The notes under the pieces are model-generated. The model made no database searches. It had not been told where the DNA came from and saw nothing but the letters and a program-made list of their open reading frames with translations. From Promethearchaeota archaeon (GTDB lineage Archaea > Asgardarchaeota > Lokiarchaeia > Sigyniarchaeales > SOKP01), in assembly GCA_029838195.1 (NCBI GenBank), contig JALGVJ010000007.1:32001-96000 (forward strand): a DNA stretch of 64,000 bases. Reading direction: 5' to 3'. Below, piece after piece: positions 2,472 through 14,292 of the stretch. The position numbers were made by a program, and so were the translations under genes. The stretch's first letter is position 1. The number at the start of each line of letters is the position of its first letter.

Positions 2472-3896
2472 ATGAATGAGGTTACATTTGATGATAAAAT
2501 ATCGCGACATTCGACCTTAACTTTTTTTTCTTTTGCTTTTTATCAATTTCCCGCATCTTTAGTTACTACAGCCCAAACGGTCGTTTTGTTCTTCTTTTAT
2601 GAAGCCGTTATAGGATTAAATACTTGGTTAGTATTCCTTGGATTTACCATAGCAACCATTTGGGATGCTATAAACGATCCATTATTAGGGTTTCTCACTG
2701 ACAGGAACATTCGGTTAACGAAACGCTTGGGCCGGCGATTTCCGTGGATCTTATTTGGAGTAATCCCATGGTCATTCTCGCTTCTTTTCATTTACATGCC
2801 TCCTCCTCTTGATCCCGTGTCTCAAGGTTGGCTTTTAACTCTTTGGTTAATATTTGCGCTTTGTTTTTTCGATACTTTTCACACGCTCATTTATGTACAA
2901 ATTGTAGCCCTTCGTGCGGATAAATTCAGGACAGAAGAAGAACGGAGGAGATTATCTCAATTTTTTGTCCCGATCGATGCAATTTCCTCAGTTACAGGGA
3001 GTATTTTGCCACCTCTTTTTCTTGGATTGGGAGAGGGCAATGAGGGTTTTGCCATAATGGCGATCTTGATTTCCATCATCACGCTCGCCTCGTCTTTCAT
3101 CTTTTTACCGGGCACCAAAGAAGATGAGATAATGATAAAACGGTATTTTGAGCAAGAATTTAAAAGAATGGGATTTTTTACCGGTTTGAGGGAATTATTC
3201 AAATCTAAAGCGTTTATAGTATTTATTCTGACCTTTATCTTTTTCGAGATCACAATGGGCATGTTGACGGGCAACACGATATATTTAGCTACGTTTGCTT
3301 TGCGGGACTCGGATTTGACAACGGTAATTCTCTTAGTATTTCTCTTGGCAGCGATAATTTCGGTTCCCTTTTGGACTAAATTAATGAAGAAATGGGATAA
3401 TAATAAAAAGGTATTTCAAATTGGGGGGTTTGCCACGTGTCTTGCCTTGATTCCGATAACTTTTTTTGTCACGCTCGTGGACTTGTTAATATTCACGTTT
3501 ATTCTTGGATTCATGCTTGGTAGCATGTGGGCTTTACTGCTTCCCGTGATTCAACCGAATGTTTTGGACGATTTTGTGATTCAAACGAAAAAGGACCAAA
3601 AAGGAGTTTTAATAGGAATTACCACGTTTATCGTGCGTTTTTCGGCCACCATTGATGAATTAATTTTGACGATAGTTCATAATCTAACGGGGTTTTTACC
3701 AGGTTACGATACTTATGAAAAAATGGCCGCAGTTGTAGGGGACATGACACCCGTGGTCTGGGGAATTCGATGTTTGATGGGAGTCATTCCGGCACTAATC
3801 TTATTTATCGGTATTTTCATTTTCTGGAAATTTTATCCTCTCACGCAGGATAAAGTCCATCAAAATAAACTTATATTAGAAGAATTGAAATTTTAA
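2472..3896 (+). CDS. MFS glycoside-pentoside-hexuronide (MelB/GPH-like) sugar transporter
   Basis: ~12 TM helices; WDAINDPLLGFLTDR and GRRFPW signatures. Confidence 0.9.
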   Translation: MNEVTFDDKISRHSTLTFFSFAFYQFPASLVTTAQTVVLFFFYEAVIGLNTWLVFLGFTIATIWDAINDPLLGFLTDRNIRLTKRLGRRFPWILFGVIPWSFSLLFIYMPPPLDPVSQGWLLTLWLIFALCFFDTFHTLIYVQIVALRADKFRTEEERRRLSQFFVPIDAISSVTGSILPPLFLGLGEGNEGFAIMAILISIITLASSFIFLPGTKEDEIMIKRYFEQEFKRMGFFTGLRELFKSKAFIVFILTFIFFEITMGMLTGNTIYLATFALRDSDLTTVILLVFLLAAIISVPFWTKLMKKWDNNKKVFQIGGFATCLALIPITFFVTLVDLLIFTFILGFMLGSMWALLLPVIQPNVLDDFVIQTKKDQKGVLIGITTFIVRFSATIDELILTIVHNLTGFLPGYDTYEKMAAVVGDMTPVVWGIRCLMGVIPALILFIGIFIFWKFYPLTQDKVHQNKLILEELKF

Positions 3897-10239: not shown

Positions 10240-11424
10240 TCATGGATTTTCTTCTTTTAATTTTTCTTCAATCCGCCTTTTCTCTTGTTCCAGTATTTTC
10301 CTTTCCTTATCTTGGAGTTCTTTTTTTTTTAATTCCAACTCTACTTGAGCAAGCATTCTTTCTTTCTCAAGCAATTCTTCTTTATGTCTTAATGCTTTTT
10401 CTTTCTCGTTTAATTCTTTTTCCTCTAATGCTTTTTCCCTTGCTTTGAGTTCAATTTTTTTCTTTTTTAATTCAAGTTCTTTTTTTTTCAATTCTAATTC
10501 TTTTTCTCTTATTTCTTGTTCTCGTCGACTTAATTCTTCAGAATCTAACTCAAGAACTTGATTTTCTTTAATCTCACTTTCTTTTTTATCAGGGCTGACG
10601 ATATCTTTTTTAGCCGCTACTGTATCTTCAGATTTTATTAGAGGTTCTTTGGTTCCTTCCTCTACTTTAATAATTTTTTCCTCTTCATCCTTTTCTTTAA
10701 TAGCGTGAGGGACTTCCTCTTTCCTTCCTACTTTTTCTTCGATTAATTGCTCTTTTTTTGTTTTAGGTTCTTCTTCTAAAATTTTATCAATTTTTTCCAC
10801 GGATACAATTGATTTTAGAATATTATCAATTTTTTCTTTTAAGGCTTCGTTATCGGGATTTTTTTTAAGAAAATTTGTCAATATTTTGGTAATGAGCGAC
10901 GGCGATTTATTTCCTATGATTTTTAATAATTGGATTGTCTTATTAACTACAAAATCTTTTTCATCATTCAATTTCTCAACTATATTCATTAAAAGCTTTT
11001 CATCTTCGATTCTAGTATTTCCACCTTCAATAAAAATTAATAGTTGTAGTAAAGCTTCTCTTACATTGGGATCTTCGGAATTCAATAATTCTTCTGCATA
11101 AGGAAAAAATAAATTTGCCTCATTCTCACACATGGATTTCAATAATAATAAAAAGGAATACCGTAGGAGTGAATCTTTTTTCGATAAGTGATTCAATAAA
11201 TATGGAATGTCTATGATTAAATGTTCTATGAGAAATCGTAAGACCGTCCGTCCTGCGAATTCCTTTAATATGGTTTCAATAACATTTTCCATGCGTTCAA
11301 TATAATCCTCTTCAGTAGCCTGATTGAGATACGCTCCTATTTCTTTTACAGCATCATCGATTCTTCCTTCCTTTACAATTTCTTGAATATTTTTCATTTC
11401 TTTTGCATCTTTATTACTGATCAT
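10240..11424 (-). CDS. HEAT/ARM-repeat protein with acidic linker and C-terminal coiled coil
   Basis: HEAT motifs LLNSEDPNVREA and KLNDEKDFVV; E/K/L heptad tail; GGGAG RBS. Confidence 0.75.
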   Translation of the reverse strand: MISNKDAKEMKNIQEIVKEGRIDDAVKEIGAYLNQATEEDYIERMENVIETILKEFAGRTVLRFLIEHLIIDIPYLLNHLSKKDSLLRYSFLLLLKSMCENEANLFFPYAEELLNSEDPNVREALLQLLIFIEGGNTRIEDEKLLMNIVEKLNDEKDFVVNKTIQLLKIIGNKSPSLITKILTNFLKKNPDNEALKEKIDNILKSIVSVEKIDKILEEEPKTKKEQLIEEKVGRKEEVPHAIKEKDEEEKIIKVEEGTKEPLIKSEDTVAAKKDIVSPDKKESEIKENQVLELDSEELSRREQEIREKELELKKKELELKKKKIELKAREKALEEKELNEKEKALRHKEELLEKERMLAQVELELKKKELQDKERKILEQEKRRIEEKLKEENP

Positions 11425-11461
11425 GAATTAAATCTCCCCTTTCTCATAAATTTTAAAAATT

Positions 11462-12485
11462 TTATTTTTTTTCCACTAAATAATCTTCTAAATTTACAAC
11501 ATAATAATCTTGGTAAATTCTGTTCACAAAATCAAATATTGTACGTAAATCTCTAAATTTAATGGGTACCCTCCTTTTATTATTATCATAACTAGGAGAT
11601 GTGGGTATGATATTTAATTTTATCTGTAAATTATTATTTTGATCATGAATTAAATTAATCTCTTCACAAATAAAAGATAATTTCTCGATATCATTCGCAA
11701 ACTCTCCCAAAAAATACTGATCATATTTCGAATTTTCTTCAAACAAACCATTATTCGACACCTTTACTAATATCTCACGAGGTATTTTCGTAATTAATTC
11801 CACGCGCTCATCAGGAATTAATCGTAATAAAACATCGGGATAATGAACAGAACAATAAAAATATATAAGCCCATGAAGTAATTCTAAGGAATAGATGACT
11901 TCTCGATTGGCATTGCATAATGCATAATTTTTATTCAAGAATAAAACATGAATACGATCTTCAAAAAAGAAAATTAAATAATTTTTTTCTTCTGTTAGGT
12001 AGTATTTAAAATTCTCTTTCTCAACATGAATTCTATGGTCAAATATTTCAAAAGCATAGTCCCATTGTTTAAAAGCAATAAATTTATTTAATTTTCTATA
12101 ATCTCCGTGAAAGAATACGTCAAAAAAATCAACTATGTATAAATACGTGTCATGAGGGAAATATATAACGGTTTTACCTCTAAATTGCCTTTCAATAATG
12201 CCCTTCTGGATCTTATAACAAAATTTTGGGATATCCTCTATTTTTAAACCACTCTTGATGCGCAAATTGAGTAAAAAGCGTCTTGTACAAGAGGGTGTAA
12301 GAGTGCAAGCAATTTTAGACATGGAGTTAATAATCACATGAAGCATGTGCCATTCTATCTATTTGGCACTCTTCGAAACACAACTTGTCAATTCGCTTTA
12401 TCAATAATTCCAACAGCTCAGAATTATACTTCTCATTATAAGAAGTTTCTAAAAAATTTAACAAGTGGTTTGGTTCCAGCGGCAT
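11462..12485 (-). CDS. Intron-split hypothetical Cys-cluster protein, join(12355..12485, 11462..12314), 327 aa predicted after splicing
   Basis: Exon 1 (ATG 12485) reads MPLEPNHLLN...LCFEECQIDR, and exon 2 continues IACTLTPSCTRRF in the +1 frame. Removing 40 nt gives 131+853=984 nt open. The ORF-track start (12346) lies inside the insertion. Confidence 0.8.
12315..12354 (-). other. Putative bulge-helix-bulge (EndA-type) intron, 40 nt, in a protein-coding gene
   Basis: Central 4-bp helix AGAU/GUCU; 3-nt bulges AGA and AAA on opposite strands; intron-side helix AUGG/CCAU; exon-side helices AAU/AUU and AAGAGUGC/GCACUCUU; internal hairpin CACAUG-CUU-CAUGUG. Confidence 0.78.
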
Positions 12486-12810
12486 GATAGAGGATTTTAA
12501 ATGTAATTAAGATTATAATTTATAATCTATTTCATGATAATTTATTGAATAATAATTAATCTATTTTATGATAGGAAATCCTTTATCAAAAAATTTTAAT
12601 AACATCGCCCCATTCCGTTTTCTTGCTTATTTCAATCCTATATTGTTCCAATTAACGGGGACTCTAATTAAATGCATTATAAAACAAGTTAAATTATTTC
12701 AAATCTCCGATCTCCAACATTTTGAATTCAAATACTTATATTTTTTTACTTTTTTAACTTTTATTAAGTAAAAAGAGTCAAATTCGAAAAAAGCATAAAT
12801 TAAAGGGGTC

Positions 12811-14292
12811 ATGCTGAGACAAGTTCACGTGTTTCATGAAGGGAAGCATCTATTTACCCATAGTCTTGCTTTAGGTTTTGGAAAAGAAGAATTGGATAAA
12901 GTAAAAGAAGTAATTGACGAATATATCTCTTACCCAATTCCAGGGAAAACACATCATCGACCTCTTTCTAACTACCAGATTTTTCACCAAGGAAAAGGAA
13001 ATATATATTTTTTATTTGTTGCGGATTTAATTGACTCTATTAATTACATGGAAAAATTAGTTAATAGAACTTTAGAAAAGTTTTCGGAACTCTTTTCGGA
13101 TCCCTTAGAAATTCAACAACAATTAGAAAAAAGGGAAAAATTTATCGCCTTCCTTAATGATCTACAGAAAGAAATGCATTCTAAAATTGCTATAGCAGGA
13201 CCGATTAAATCCGGCAAAACCACTCTCTATAATCTTCTGAAGAGTGGAGAAGAAAGAACACTCATGAATTTTGCAAAGATATCTAATTTTGTAATTAGTA
13301 ATTTAACCTTTGATTTTTGGGATTTTCAACTGCAAGATAATTTTTCATTGCTATGGTCAAAATTTTTAAGCGGCTCAGACCTTATCATTTTATTAATTGA
13401 TGTATCTAATTATAATCTCAAAATTATCAATCATTTTTTGAGTTTTCAAAAAAAAGAAGCTCGATTTTCAAAATTCCTTTTCCTTGCCAACAAGATTGAT
13501 TTAATCAAGAACGTAGAAATCGAATTAGAAAAAATTAAAAAAGATTTAAAAATAAAGGAGTTGATATCCATATCTCTTTCTGAAAACGGCGCAATAAAAA
13601 AAGTCACGACCGCTATCCGAAATACTTTAGGATTAAAAGAAGTGCTTCCGGAGAATTTCGAAACTCTCATGAAAGAAGCTGAGCAATTAGAAAAGGAGCA
13701 TAAATTTGTCTCTGCCATAGCTAAATATAAAAATCTCATCCAAATTTGTAATAGAGTACAAGATTTCTCATATATTAATAACTTTAGGCAAAAAGTAGAA
13801 GAATTAACTGAAAAATTACGGCAAACCGTCGAAAAGAAAAAAGAACAAGAAAAAAAAATTAAATTTGAAGTCCCCGAGCAAATACAATTTAAATATAGAG
13901 TTAAAACAAAATCTCTGCCTCAATCTACTCCTAAAGCGGCAACGACGCTTCAAGAAAAAACGCAACAATCCCCACCGCCATCTAAATTTAAATCCAAATT
14001 AAAACCTTCAGATTTCATTATCGATCTCGAGCCTTTAAGAAAAGACGAAATGATTAAAAAGAAGATAATAGAAACTTCTCATAAAAAAATTGTCCCTGTA
14101 AAGCCGGAGGACTTAAAAAGTGAGGAAGATTATCCAAAAGCACTGCAAAGAATGATATCAAATAGAGGCAGTTATTTAAGTTTAAATTTAACTAAACAAT
14201 ATTTAGAGGAAGTTAAAGAAATCCTCGGCAGGCCCCTGACATTTGAGGACTTGCTAAATTTAGCAGATCAATTCGTTCAGAAGGATCAATAA
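12811..14292 (+). CDS. Longin-like domain + Ras-superfamily (Arf/Rab-like) GTPase + helical/low-complexity C-terminus
   Basis: P-loop GPIKSGKTT, degenerate G3 WDFQ, G4 NKID. N-terminal ~120 aa have a longin-like pattern. Confidence 0.8.
   Translation: MLRQVHVFHEGKHLFTHSLALGFGKEELDKVKEVIDEYISYPIPGKTHHRPLSNYQIFHQGKGNIYFLFVADLIDSINYMEKLVNRTLEKFSELFSDPLEIQQQLEKREKFIAFLNDLQKEMHSKIAIAGPIKSGKTTLYNLLKSGEERTLMNFAKISNFVISNLTFDFWDFQLQDNFSLLWSKFLSGSDLIILLIDVSNYNLKIINHFLSFQKKEARFSKFLFLANKIDLIKNVEIELEKIKKDLKIKELISISLSENGAIKKVTTAIRNTLGLKEVLPENFETLMKEAEQLEKEHKFVSAIAKYKNLIQICNRVQDFSYINNFRQKVEELTEKLRQTVEKKKEQEKKIKFEVPEQIQFKYRVKTKSLPQSTPKAATTLQEKTQQSPPPSKFKSKLKPSDFIIDLEPLRKDEMIKKKIIETSHKKIVPVKPEDLKSEEDYPKALQRMISNRGSYLSLNLTKQYLEEVKEILGRPLTFEDLLNLADQFVQKDQ

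What the first reader, a model, noticed from the sequence alone, without database searches (positions are those of the whole stretch)
11462..12485. Splicing assembles a four-Cys metal-binding motif: a possible on/off switch
Seen: the insertion lies in the middle of C-x3-C-x6-C-x5-C (CFEECQIDR|IACTLTPSC), with two Cys in each exon and another at FCY. The unspliced RNA gives only a 52-aa peptide (12485-12327), and the insertion also holds an AUG (12346) in frame with exon 2. Inference: only the spliced mRNA makes an Fe-S/Zn-binding protein, so EndA/RtcB activity could regulate it, loosely like the Ire1-cut, tRNA-ligase-joined HAC1/XBP1 frameshift splicing in eukaryotes. Protein function is unknown.
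Basis: inference. Interest (0 to 1): 0.7.

Follow-up and report, generated by a model that had tools for sequence, protein, structure and literature searches.

The report
tRNA-type mini-intron splitting a cysteine motif
A 40-base insert shaped like an archaeal tRNA intron splits the conserved cysteine cluster of an uncharacterised Asgard-archaeal protein, so the full protein can only come from spliced mRNA, but nothing found here shows that this splicing acts as a regulatory switch.

Summary
On the minus strand a 44-codon exon (12485-12355) and an 853-nt exon (12314-11462) are separated by 40 nt. Removing them gives a 327-aa protein that is colinear, without a gap, with about 260 uninterrupted Asgard homologues.

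The insert folds as a canonical hBHBh' motif. Its predicted cuts give exactly the junction defined by homology. A same-genus relative carries a 39-nt version with three compensatory base-pair changes. Both exons are under purifying selection. The genome encodes EndA (two strong hits and one weaker) and RtcB.

The cysteines are conserved: C40, C53 and C76 are essentially invariant, C36 nearly so, and C47 is least conserved (about 84% family-wide). The likely ligand set is therefore split 2+2(+1) between the exons.

The "on/off switch" idea is not supported:
- The intron occurs in only one genus, and a close relative with the same gene order lacks it.
- Single-copy pyrG and rpl11 in the same genome also carry frame-breaking inserts, so splicing is probably constitutive.
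- The tails of the unspliced peptide are not conserved.
- No RNA data exist for this organism.

The protein has no Pfam, PDB or fold match. It sits in a conserved module with an Arf-like GTPase gene and a HEAT-repeat gene.

This scan has already noted many such mini-introns, in this genome and in others.

The parts
12355..12485 (-). Exon 1: 131 nt, codons 1-43 plus the first two bases of R44. It carries C36 (12380-12378) and C40 (12368-12366).
   Evidence: ORF list and sequence. It aligns with residues 1-44 of uninterrupted homologues. Window vs L001 shows 7 synonymous and 1 non-synonymous difference.
12315..12354 (-). 40-nt BHB intron, with boundaries set by the rule that EndA cuts between the 2nd and 3rd nucleotide of each bulge.
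   Evidence: It is absent from 140 other genomes of the order. It is identical in L001, and 39 nt long with compensatory changes in L003.
11462..12314 (-). Exon 2, including the stop codon. It carries C47 (12307-12305), C53 (12289-12287) and C76 (12220-12218).
   Evidence: dN/dS is 0.11-0.14 against L001 and L003.
12354..12356 (-). 5' bulge AGA. The predicted cut lies after G at 12355.
   Evidence: Hand analysis, the motif scan, and the cleavage rule quoted in PMC2738675.
12357..12360 (-). Central 4-bp helix H, 5' strand (AGAU), pairing with GUCU at 12320-12317.
   Evidence: Identical in all three intron-bearing lineages.
12314..12316 (-). 3' bulge AAA. The predicted cut lies after A at 12315.
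12321..12353 (-). Intron interior. It holds helix h' (AUGG 12353-12350 with CCAU 12324-12321), a 6-bp hairpin (12349-12344 with 12340-12335) and a 10-nt unpaired linker (12334-12325).
   Evidence: L003 keeps h' as AUGU/ACAU and the hairpin as AGCAUG/CAUGCU, which is three pairs changed on both sides and none broken.
12361..12373 (-). Exon-side helices, 5' strands: h (AAU, 12363-12361) and the 8-bp outer helix (AAGAGUGC, 12373-12366). They pair with AUU (12313-12311) and GCACUCUU (12306-12299). The outer helix is built from the E-E-C and C-T-L codons.
   Evidence: All 8 pairs are Watson-Crick in intron-bearing genes, against a mode of 5 of 8 (range 2-7, G-U counted) in intronless homologues, some of them mis-registered in the script.
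12327..12485 (-). 52-aa ORF read from unspliced RNA: exon 1 plus the 8-residue tail MAHASCDY.
   Evidence: In L003 the tail is a single M followed by TAG, so it is not conserved.
12320..12322 (-). In-frame AUG inside h'/H (CCAUGUCU). Gene callers use it to annotate a truncated 286-aa protein. A second in-frame AUG at 12346-12344 lies in the hairpin.
   Evidence: P0001-P0003 start MSKIACT. No GGAGG-like sequence lies upstream.
10240..11424 (-). Downstream HEAT-repeat plus coiled-coil gene, 37 nt after the stop, with a GGGGAG Shine-Dalgarno-like box. It is probably co-transcribed.
   Evidence: The neighbour is conserved in 40 of 50 homologous loci.
12811..14292 (+). Divergently transcribed Arf-family small GTPase gene (493 aa).
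   Evidence: Pfam Arf, E 5e-12. The neighbour is conserved in 37 of 50 loci.

Best explanation
The 40-nt insert is a genuine archaeal bulge-helix-bulge (tRNA-type) intron in a protein-coding gene. The pre-mRNA folds into an hBHBh' motif. The (alpha-beta)2 splicing endonuclease EndA cuts between the 2nd and 3rd nucleotide of each 3-nt bulge, and RtcB joins the exons. Only then can the 327-aa protein be translated. That protein belongs to an uncharacterised family found across Asgard archaea (with a Korarchaeota-labelled branch). Its conserved Cys cluster (C36, C40, C53, C76, plus C47) most likely binds a metal. The intron is a young insertion restricted to one genus. Selection keeps its RNA structure, because the gene is useless without splicing. 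Its position inside the Cys motif is most simply explained as incidental, helped by local self-complementarity of the Cys-flanking codons that forms the exon-side helix. Splicing is probably constitutive, not a dedicated switch. Shown here: the anatomy, the homology-defined junction, covariation, purifying selection, and the presence of the enzymes. Inferred: actual splicing, metal binding, and constitutive splicing.
For: - Junction: homologues read LCFEECQIDRI.CTLTP without a gap across the exon 1/exon 2 join. A canonical BHB (4-bp helix, 3-nt bulges AGA and AAA, h 3 bp, h' 4 bp) predicts exactly that junction. The chance of this is about 2e-4.
- Covariation: L003/G033 has a 39-nt version with an in-frame TAG, while the window has 40 nt and a frameshift. 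Both are repaired only by excision, and three helix pairs changed on both sides with none broken.
- Selection on the protein: dN/dS is 0.03 (exon 1) and 0.13 (exon 2) against L001, and 0.11-0.14 against L003.
- Selection on the RNA: the window and L001 differ at 110 of 1024 nt, but a 105-nt identical run brackets the intron (P = 4e-4).
- Enzymes: three EndA hits and one RtcB hit in the genome. Asgard EndA is the broad-specificity (alpha-beta)2 type (PMC5829648).
- Cys conservation.
- Against a switch: the intron is found only in this genus among 154 genomes of the order and in two collection scans. The intronless relative L004 has the same gene order. pyrG and rpl11 of the same genome are also interrupted.
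Against: - No RNA evidence exists. No RNA run was listed, so neither splicing nor its completeness has been observed.
- The MFE and RNAalifold folds prefer a 5-bp register of the central helix. The canonical 4-bp register that gives the correct junction is an equally plausible alternative, not the single predicted optimum.
- The 105-nt stretch of perfect identity between the window and L001 includes a 10-nt unpaired linker and 60 nt of upstream exon. That is more constraint than the BHB alone explains, and it could hide a regulatory element.
- Metal binding is inferred from conservation only. No known metal-binding fold was matched.
Confidence: 0.72

Rival explanations
1. Regulated-splicing switch. 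The efficiency of EndA/RtcB splicing of this particular intron is modulated, so the metal-binding protein is made only under some conditions. This would be analogous to HAC1/XBP1, or to the negative-regulator role once proposed for the cbf5 intron.
For: - The intron splits the ligand set, so the unspliced RNA cannot give a functional protein.
- A 105-nt ultra-conserved segment around the intron, including an unpaired linker, exceeds what the BHB needs.
- A regulatory role has been proposed in print for the cbf5 intron (PMC2738675). A Haloferax 5'UTR BHB intron affects expression (PMC7714728).
Against: - The intron is confined to one genus, and a near relative lacks it while keeping the same gene order.
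- Single-copy housekeeping genes in the same genome also need insert removal.
- The products of the unspliced RNA are not conserved.
- The linker is free to vary in L003.
- No sensor or condition-dependent nuclease is implied by anything seen here.
- No RNA data exist.
Confidence: 0.1
2. Split or decaying gene. The insert is a disabling insertion, and either nothing functional is made or only the 286/294-aa product from an internal AUG is made, as currently annotated in public MAGs.
For: Gene callers annotate a 286-aa protein plus a separate 52-aa ORF.
Against: - Exon 1 is under strong purifying selection: 7 synonymous against 1 non-synonymous change.
- The insert persists with compensatory changes across lineages whose synonymous sites differ by about 0.65-0.8 per site, close to saturation.
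- The truncated product would lack near-invariant C36 and C40.
- There is no Shine-Dalgarno sequence before the internal AUGs.
Confidence: 0.05
3. A translational event rather than RNA splicing: ribosomal bypassing (as in T4 gene 60) or programmed frameshifting across the 40 nt.
For: A hairpin follows the break, and in L003 a stop codon lies one codon after it.
Against: - The take-off and landing codons do not match (AGA against AAA/AUU).
- The 40-nt and 39-nt versions need different frame changes.
- The sequence has the exact geometry of an EndA substrate.
Confidence: 0.03

Closest known systems
BHB intron of the cbf5 (pseudouridine synthase) pre-mRNA in Crenarchaeota (Watanabe 2002; Yokobori 2009, PMC2738675)
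   Same: Both are short BHB introns inside a protein-coding sequence, with the cut predicted between the 2nd and 3rd bulge nucleotide. Both lie inside a functionally critical motif (the catalytic Asp codon in cbf5, the Cys cluster here). Both show a patchy gain/loss distribution among close relatives, and both occur in lineages with the heterotetrameric EndA. A regulatory role was speculated for both.
   Different: The gene is different (an uncharacterised Cys-rich protein) and so is the phylum (Asgard/Promethearchaeota). The motif here is canonical hBHBh', whereas most cbf5 introns are relaxed. No cDNA confirmation exists here.
Archaeal tRNA/rRNA BHB introns processed by EndA and RtcB
   Same: The structural motif and the predicted enzymology are identical. 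The genome encodes EndA subunits and RtcB.
   Different: The host RNA is an mRNA, so excision must restore a reading frame. The exon-side helix is made from codons.
HAC1/XBP1 unconventional cytoplasmic splicing (Ire1 plus tRNA ligase/RtcB)
   Same: A short intron whose removal changes the reading frame and the protein produced, with ligation by a tRNA ligase (RtcB in metazoa). This comparison rests on general knowledge.
   Different: The endonuclease there is the stress-activated Ire1 and the splicing is conditional. Here the nuclease is the housekeeping EndA. No conditionality is shown, the L003 version does not even shift the frame, and the unspliced product is not conserved.
BHB intron in the 5'UTR of Haloferax HVO_1309 (PMC7714728)
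   Same: An EndA-processed intron in an mRNA with an effect on expression.
   Different: That intron lies in the untranslated leader, not in the coding sequence.

Membership tests
Archaeal hBHBh' intron (EndA substrate) | Two 3-nt bulges on opposite strands separated by a 4-bp helix | tested here: met
   AGAU/GUCU is flanked by bulges AGA and AAA. The MFE fold prefers a 5-bp register of the same helix.
Archaeal hBHBh' intron (EndA substrate) | Flanking helices h and h' of at least 2 bp | tested here: met
   h is AAU/AUU, extended by an 8-bp outer helix. h' is AUGG/CCAU, extended by a 6-bp hairpin.
Archaeal hBHBh' intron (EndA substrate) | Cuts between the 2nd and 3rd bulge nucleotide give a functional joined RNA | tested here: met
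   The predicted junction equals the gap-free alignment with uninterrupted homologues. The cleavage rule is taken from PMC2738675.
Archaeal hBHBh' intron (EndA substrate) | Structure conserved through compensatory changes in relatives | tested here: met
   Three pairs changed on both sides and none broken between the window and L003. Only two independent sequences are available.
Archaeal hBHBh' intron (EndA substrate) | Splicing endonuclease and RtcB ligase encoded in the genome | tested here: met
   PF01974: 3 hits (100.7, 66.4 and 29.6 bits). PF01139: 1 hit (553 bits).
Archaeal hBHBh' intron (EndA substrate) | Spliced mRNA or circular intron observed | not testable with these tools
   No RNA run was listed for this sequence.
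Cys4 metal-binding (Zn or Fe-S) domain | Four or more invariant Cys at fixed spacing | tested here: met
   In the 132-sequence alignment: C36 130/132, C40 132/132, C47 129/132, C53 132/132, C76 132/132. Across 68 diverse representatives: C36 62/63, C40 63/64, C47 54/64, C53 64/66, C76 67/67.
Cys4 metal-binding (Zn or Fe-S) domain | Cys side chains clustered in three dimensions | not testable with these tools
Cys4 metal-binding (Zn or Fe-S) domain | Similarity to a known metal-binding fold or family | tested here: inconclusive
   No Pfam hit, no PDB sequence hit, no Foldseek hit at E<=0.001, and VIA Z<=5.0 for the N-terminal domain.
HAC1/XBP1-type regulated unconventional splicing | Unspliced and spliced mRNAs both give defined, conserved products | tested here: not met
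   The tail of the unspliced ORF is 8 residues here and 1 residue in L003, so it is not conserved.
HAC1/XBP1-type regulated unconventional splicing | Splicing depends on conditions through a regulated nuclease | not testable with these tools
   No RNA data. A search for an Ire1-like nuclease was not run.

The most novel reading that the evidence does not exclude
The unusually conserved 105-nt RNA segment around the intron, including its unpaired 10-nt linker, tunes EndA access. Production of this metal-binding partner of an Arf-like GTPase/HEAT module would then be gated by splicing. [quoted passage not shown]
Probability: 0.07. Interest if true: 0.85.

Novelty: new member of a known kind. Interest (0 to 1): 0.48.

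Why it matters
In the papers I could search, splicing of an archaeal protein-coding sequence by the tRNA-splicing machinery is documented only for cbf5.

This locus is a clean additional case, in an Asgard archaeon. It has a canonical motif, 39-nt and 40-nt variants with covariation, and an intronless sister locus. That makes it a convenient substrate for testing mRNA splicing by EndA and RtcB.

It also shows that public annotations of this family in this genus are wrong: they give a 286-aa protein plus a 52-aa ORF instead of one 327-aa protein.

The specific claim that splicing is a metal-site on/off switch is not supported by anything found here.

Tried and rejected
- RNA evidence: no RNA holder was listed for the locus. 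Only DNA contigs could be laid.
- Genome-wide scan for BHB motifs whose removal fuses two open frames: true and decoy junctions gave equal counts (3506 against 3367-3540). The filter does not discriminate, because it mostly picks up adjacent co-directional genes, so it was dropped.
- Mobility: blastn-short of the intron against the genome found no other copy.
- More intron-bearing homologues: pattern scans of genome contigs and metagenome contigs returned only the G033 contig plus chance bacterial and other hits.
- Function of the protein: Pfam, a PDB sequence profile, Foldseek PDB, VIA-align wide, ESM Atlas by shape and by features. Only generic matches came back, with Z about 6 for the C-terminal alpha/beta domain 184-321.
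- An ArfGAP-like Zn finger was considered because of the GTPase neighbour. No sequence or fold search returned it, so it is not shown (the searches do not exclude it).
- Ribosomal bypassing, frameshifting and assembly error were considered and rejected.
- The Rfam and tRNA scans of the window were empty.

Full report
**Observation.** The minus strand of 11462-12485 holds a 52-aa ORF (12485-12327) and, in another frame, a 294-aa ORF starting at ATG 12346. Exon 1 ends ...LCFEECQIDR. After 40 nt, exon 2 continues IACTLTPSC...PKFCY. Deleting the 40 nt gives a 327-aa protein. The junction can be drawn at four equivalent positions because of A/AU repeats at both ends.

**Is it a real interruption of one gene?**
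- A search with exon 2 found 262 homologues, almost all 316-320 aa, labelled Promethearchaeota, Lokiarchaeia, Thor-, Hod- or Hermodarchaeota.
- These homologues read LCFEECQIDRI.CTLTPLC continuously, which is exactly exon 1 joined to exon 2 with no gap.
- Only the window's own protein and its two nearest relatives (P0002 at 87% identity, P0003 at 62%) are annotated as 286 aa starting MSKIACT, an ATG inside the insert.
- Their loci (L001/L002 and L003) have the same gene order and the same interruption. The next relative, P0004/L004 (59% identity), is uninterrupted.
- In 154 genomes of the order, 142 have the gene. Only the window genome and the same-genus genome G033 (the same contig as L003) are interrupted there.
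- Pattern scans of the species-representative genomes and of the JGI metagenomes found no further carriers.
- Contigs of public DNA runs filed under three different studies carry the insert without a difference, so it is not an assembly error. The best holders may, however, be the sample the window was assembled from.

**Is it a BHB intron?**
- The RNA forms an 8-bp outer helix (AAGAGUGC/GCACUCUU) and helix h (AAU/AUU). These are followed by a 4-bp helix H (AGAU/GUCU) flanked by the 3-nt bulges AGA (5') and AAA (3'). Inside lie helix h' (AUGG/CCAU) and a 6-bp hairpin.
- Cutting between the 2nd and 3rd bulge nucleotide is the rule quoted for cbf5 in PMC2738675. It removes 12354-12315 and yields exactly the homology-defined junction.
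- A motif this good occurs at 4.6e-5 per position and length in this genome. Coincidence with one of the four equivalent junctions therefore has a chance of about 2e-4.
- The MFE and RNAalifold folds prefer a 5-bp register of the central helix. That register would give a wrong frame, so the canonical 4-bp register is required. This is a caveat.
- L003 carries a 39-nt version. It is in frame but has TAG right after the junction. Its h' is AUGU/ACAU and its hairpin AGCAUG/CAUGCU, which makes three pairs changed on both sides and none broken. The unpaired linker differs freely.
- Having both 40-nt and 39-nt versions rules out a common frameshifting or bypassing mechanism.

**Selection.**
- Between the window and L001, exon 1 has 7 synonymous and 1 non-synonymous difference (omega about 0.03). 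Exon 2 has omega 0.13. Against L003, omega is 0.11-0.14. Both exons therefore encode protein under constraint, and this is not a pseudogene.
- The two genes differ at 110 of 1024 positions. The longest identical run, 105 nt (gene positions 72-176), brackets the intron (P = 4e-4 by permutation).
- This constraint extends over 60 nt of upstream exon and over the unpaired linker. That is more than the BHB needs, and it remains unexplained.

**Machinery.** The genome has three PF01974 (EndA) hits and one full-length RtcB. Published work assigns Asgard archaea the (alpha-beta)2 EndA with the L1 loop, which confers broad substrate specificity (PMC5829648).

**The cysteine motif.**
- In 132 homologues the counts are C36 130, C40 132, C47 129, C53 132 and C76 132. 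D43 is nearly invariant (131/132) and R44 invariant at the junction.
- An exhaustive profile search found only 104 clusters in 1.84 billion representatives.
- Among 68 near-full-length representatives, C36, C40, C53 and C76 are kept in 62/63, 63/64, 64/66 and 67/67. C47 is kept in 54/64. Most have C-x2-C rather than C-x3-C.
- The likely ligand set is therefore C36, C40, C53 and C76, with C47 auxiliary.
- Labelled members come from Lokiarchaeia, Sifarchaeia, Odinarchaeota, Njordarchaeia and a Korarchaeota/Thermoproteota-labelled branch. All are "hypothetical".
- AF2 models are confident (pLDDT 89.9 for the whole protein, 88.9 for residues 1-142).
- No Pfam, PDB-sequence or fold match gives a function or a metal type.

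**Context.** The gene is divergent from an Arf-family GTPase gene. It lies 37 nt upstream of a HEAT-repeat/coiled-coil gene that has a Shine-Dalgarno-like box. This arrangement is kept in 37-40 of 50 homologous loci, including members only 33% identical. A complex prediction of P0004 with the HEAT domain of its downstream neighbour gave weak support:
- The score was 0.35 and the best control 0.00.
- The mark was reached by 58 of 80 solved complexes and by 2 of 110 mismatched pairs. At 0.60 or under, it was reached by only 7 of those 80 solved complexes and by both of the mismatches that passed.
- The runs agree in at least 59% of contacts, and the partner pLDDT is at least 82.
- I treat this as a lead only.

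**The switch hypothesis.** It is true that only spliced mRNA can encode the whole Cys cluster. Several facts argue against a dedicated switch:
1. The intron is genus-specific, and a close relative does without it. A protein tree weakly groups intron-bearing L003 with intronless P0004 (support 86/67). This suggests loss, or an unresolved order, as was seen for cbf5.
2. In the same genome the single-copy pyrG is split into two frames by a short insert between ...DQDFG(T) and HERFLG.... The single rpl11 is broken between ...VTGG and ASGGPPIG.... I checked only the reading frames there. The BHB shapes are claimed in earlier notes of this scan. Housekeeping genes that need insert removal imply efficient, constitutive splicing.
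3. The tail of the unspliced peptide is not conserved.
4. The in-frame AUGs are parts of helices, have no Shine-Dalgarno sequence, and would yield a protein lacking C36 and C40.
5. The intron has no other copy in the genome.

A simple non-adaptive reason for the position is that the E-E-C and C-T-L codons are partly self-complementary. The pairing is a mode of 5 of 8 (range 2-7) in intronless homologues and 8 of 8 in carriers. This supplies the exon-side helix an EndA substrate needs.

**Comparison with known systems.** The closest known system is the cbf5 pre-mRNA intron of Crenarchaeota. It also sits in a catalytic codon, is patchily distributed, and was once proposed to act as a negative regulator. 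A Haloferax 5'UTR BHB intron is the only other mRNA case I found. The likeness to HAC1/XBP1 is limited to a small frame-changing intron and RtcB-type ligation. This scan has already recorded many such mini-introns in protein genes of this genome and of others. This locus is therefore a new member of a known, if sparsely published, kind.

**Verdict.** The intron reading is well supported. The metal-site inference is plausible but untested. The regulatory switch is unsupported, with a probability of about 0.1.

Noticed in passing
window 10240-14292; loci L001-L004, L009-L042, L045, L051: A conserved three-gene module: a divergent Arf-family GTPase gene, the Cys-cluster gene, and a downstream HEAT/coiled-coil gene. 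It is kept in 37-40 of 50 homologous loci, down to 33% protein identity. A complex prediction of the Cys protein with the HEAT domain gave weak support only: score 0.35, best control 0.00. The mark was reached by 58 of 80 solved complexes and 2 of 110 mismatched pairs, but at 0.60 or under by only 7 of the 80 solved ones and by both mismatches.
   Followed up: partly
window 12310-12414 (gene positions 72-176): A 105-nt run is identical between the window and L001, although the genes differ at 10.7% of positions (P = 4e-4). It covers the intron, its unpaired linker and 60 nt of upstream exon. This is more constraint than the BHB explains.
   Followed up: partly
G000:C56:72204-73077 (L055/L056) and G000:C47:5500-5800 (L057): The single pyrG and rpl11 genes of the same genome are each broken by a short frame-disrupting insert inside a conserved motif (...DQDFG(T) | HERFLG... 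and ...VTGG | ASGGPPIG...). Only the reading frames were checked here, not the BHB geometry.
   Followed up: partly
L001:2838-3861, L003:3001-3861 (public MAG annotations): Gene callers annotate this gene as a 286-aa protein starting at an AUG inside the intron. In L001 they add a separate 52-aa ORF. The true product is 327 aa.
   Followed up: yes
L054 (G113:C229:9566-10278): The homologue in genome G113 is split into two abutting frames near residue 124, with no inserted sequence. This could be a frameshift error or a real disruption.
   Followed up: no
G000:C1:152191-152421, C8:28388-28642, C53:22042-22209 (L005-L007): There are three EndA-domain hits in the genome: two strong ones of about 200 aa (presumably the alpha and beta subunits) and a third weak one in a 109-aa ORF, just above the Pfam cut-off.
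   Followed up: no
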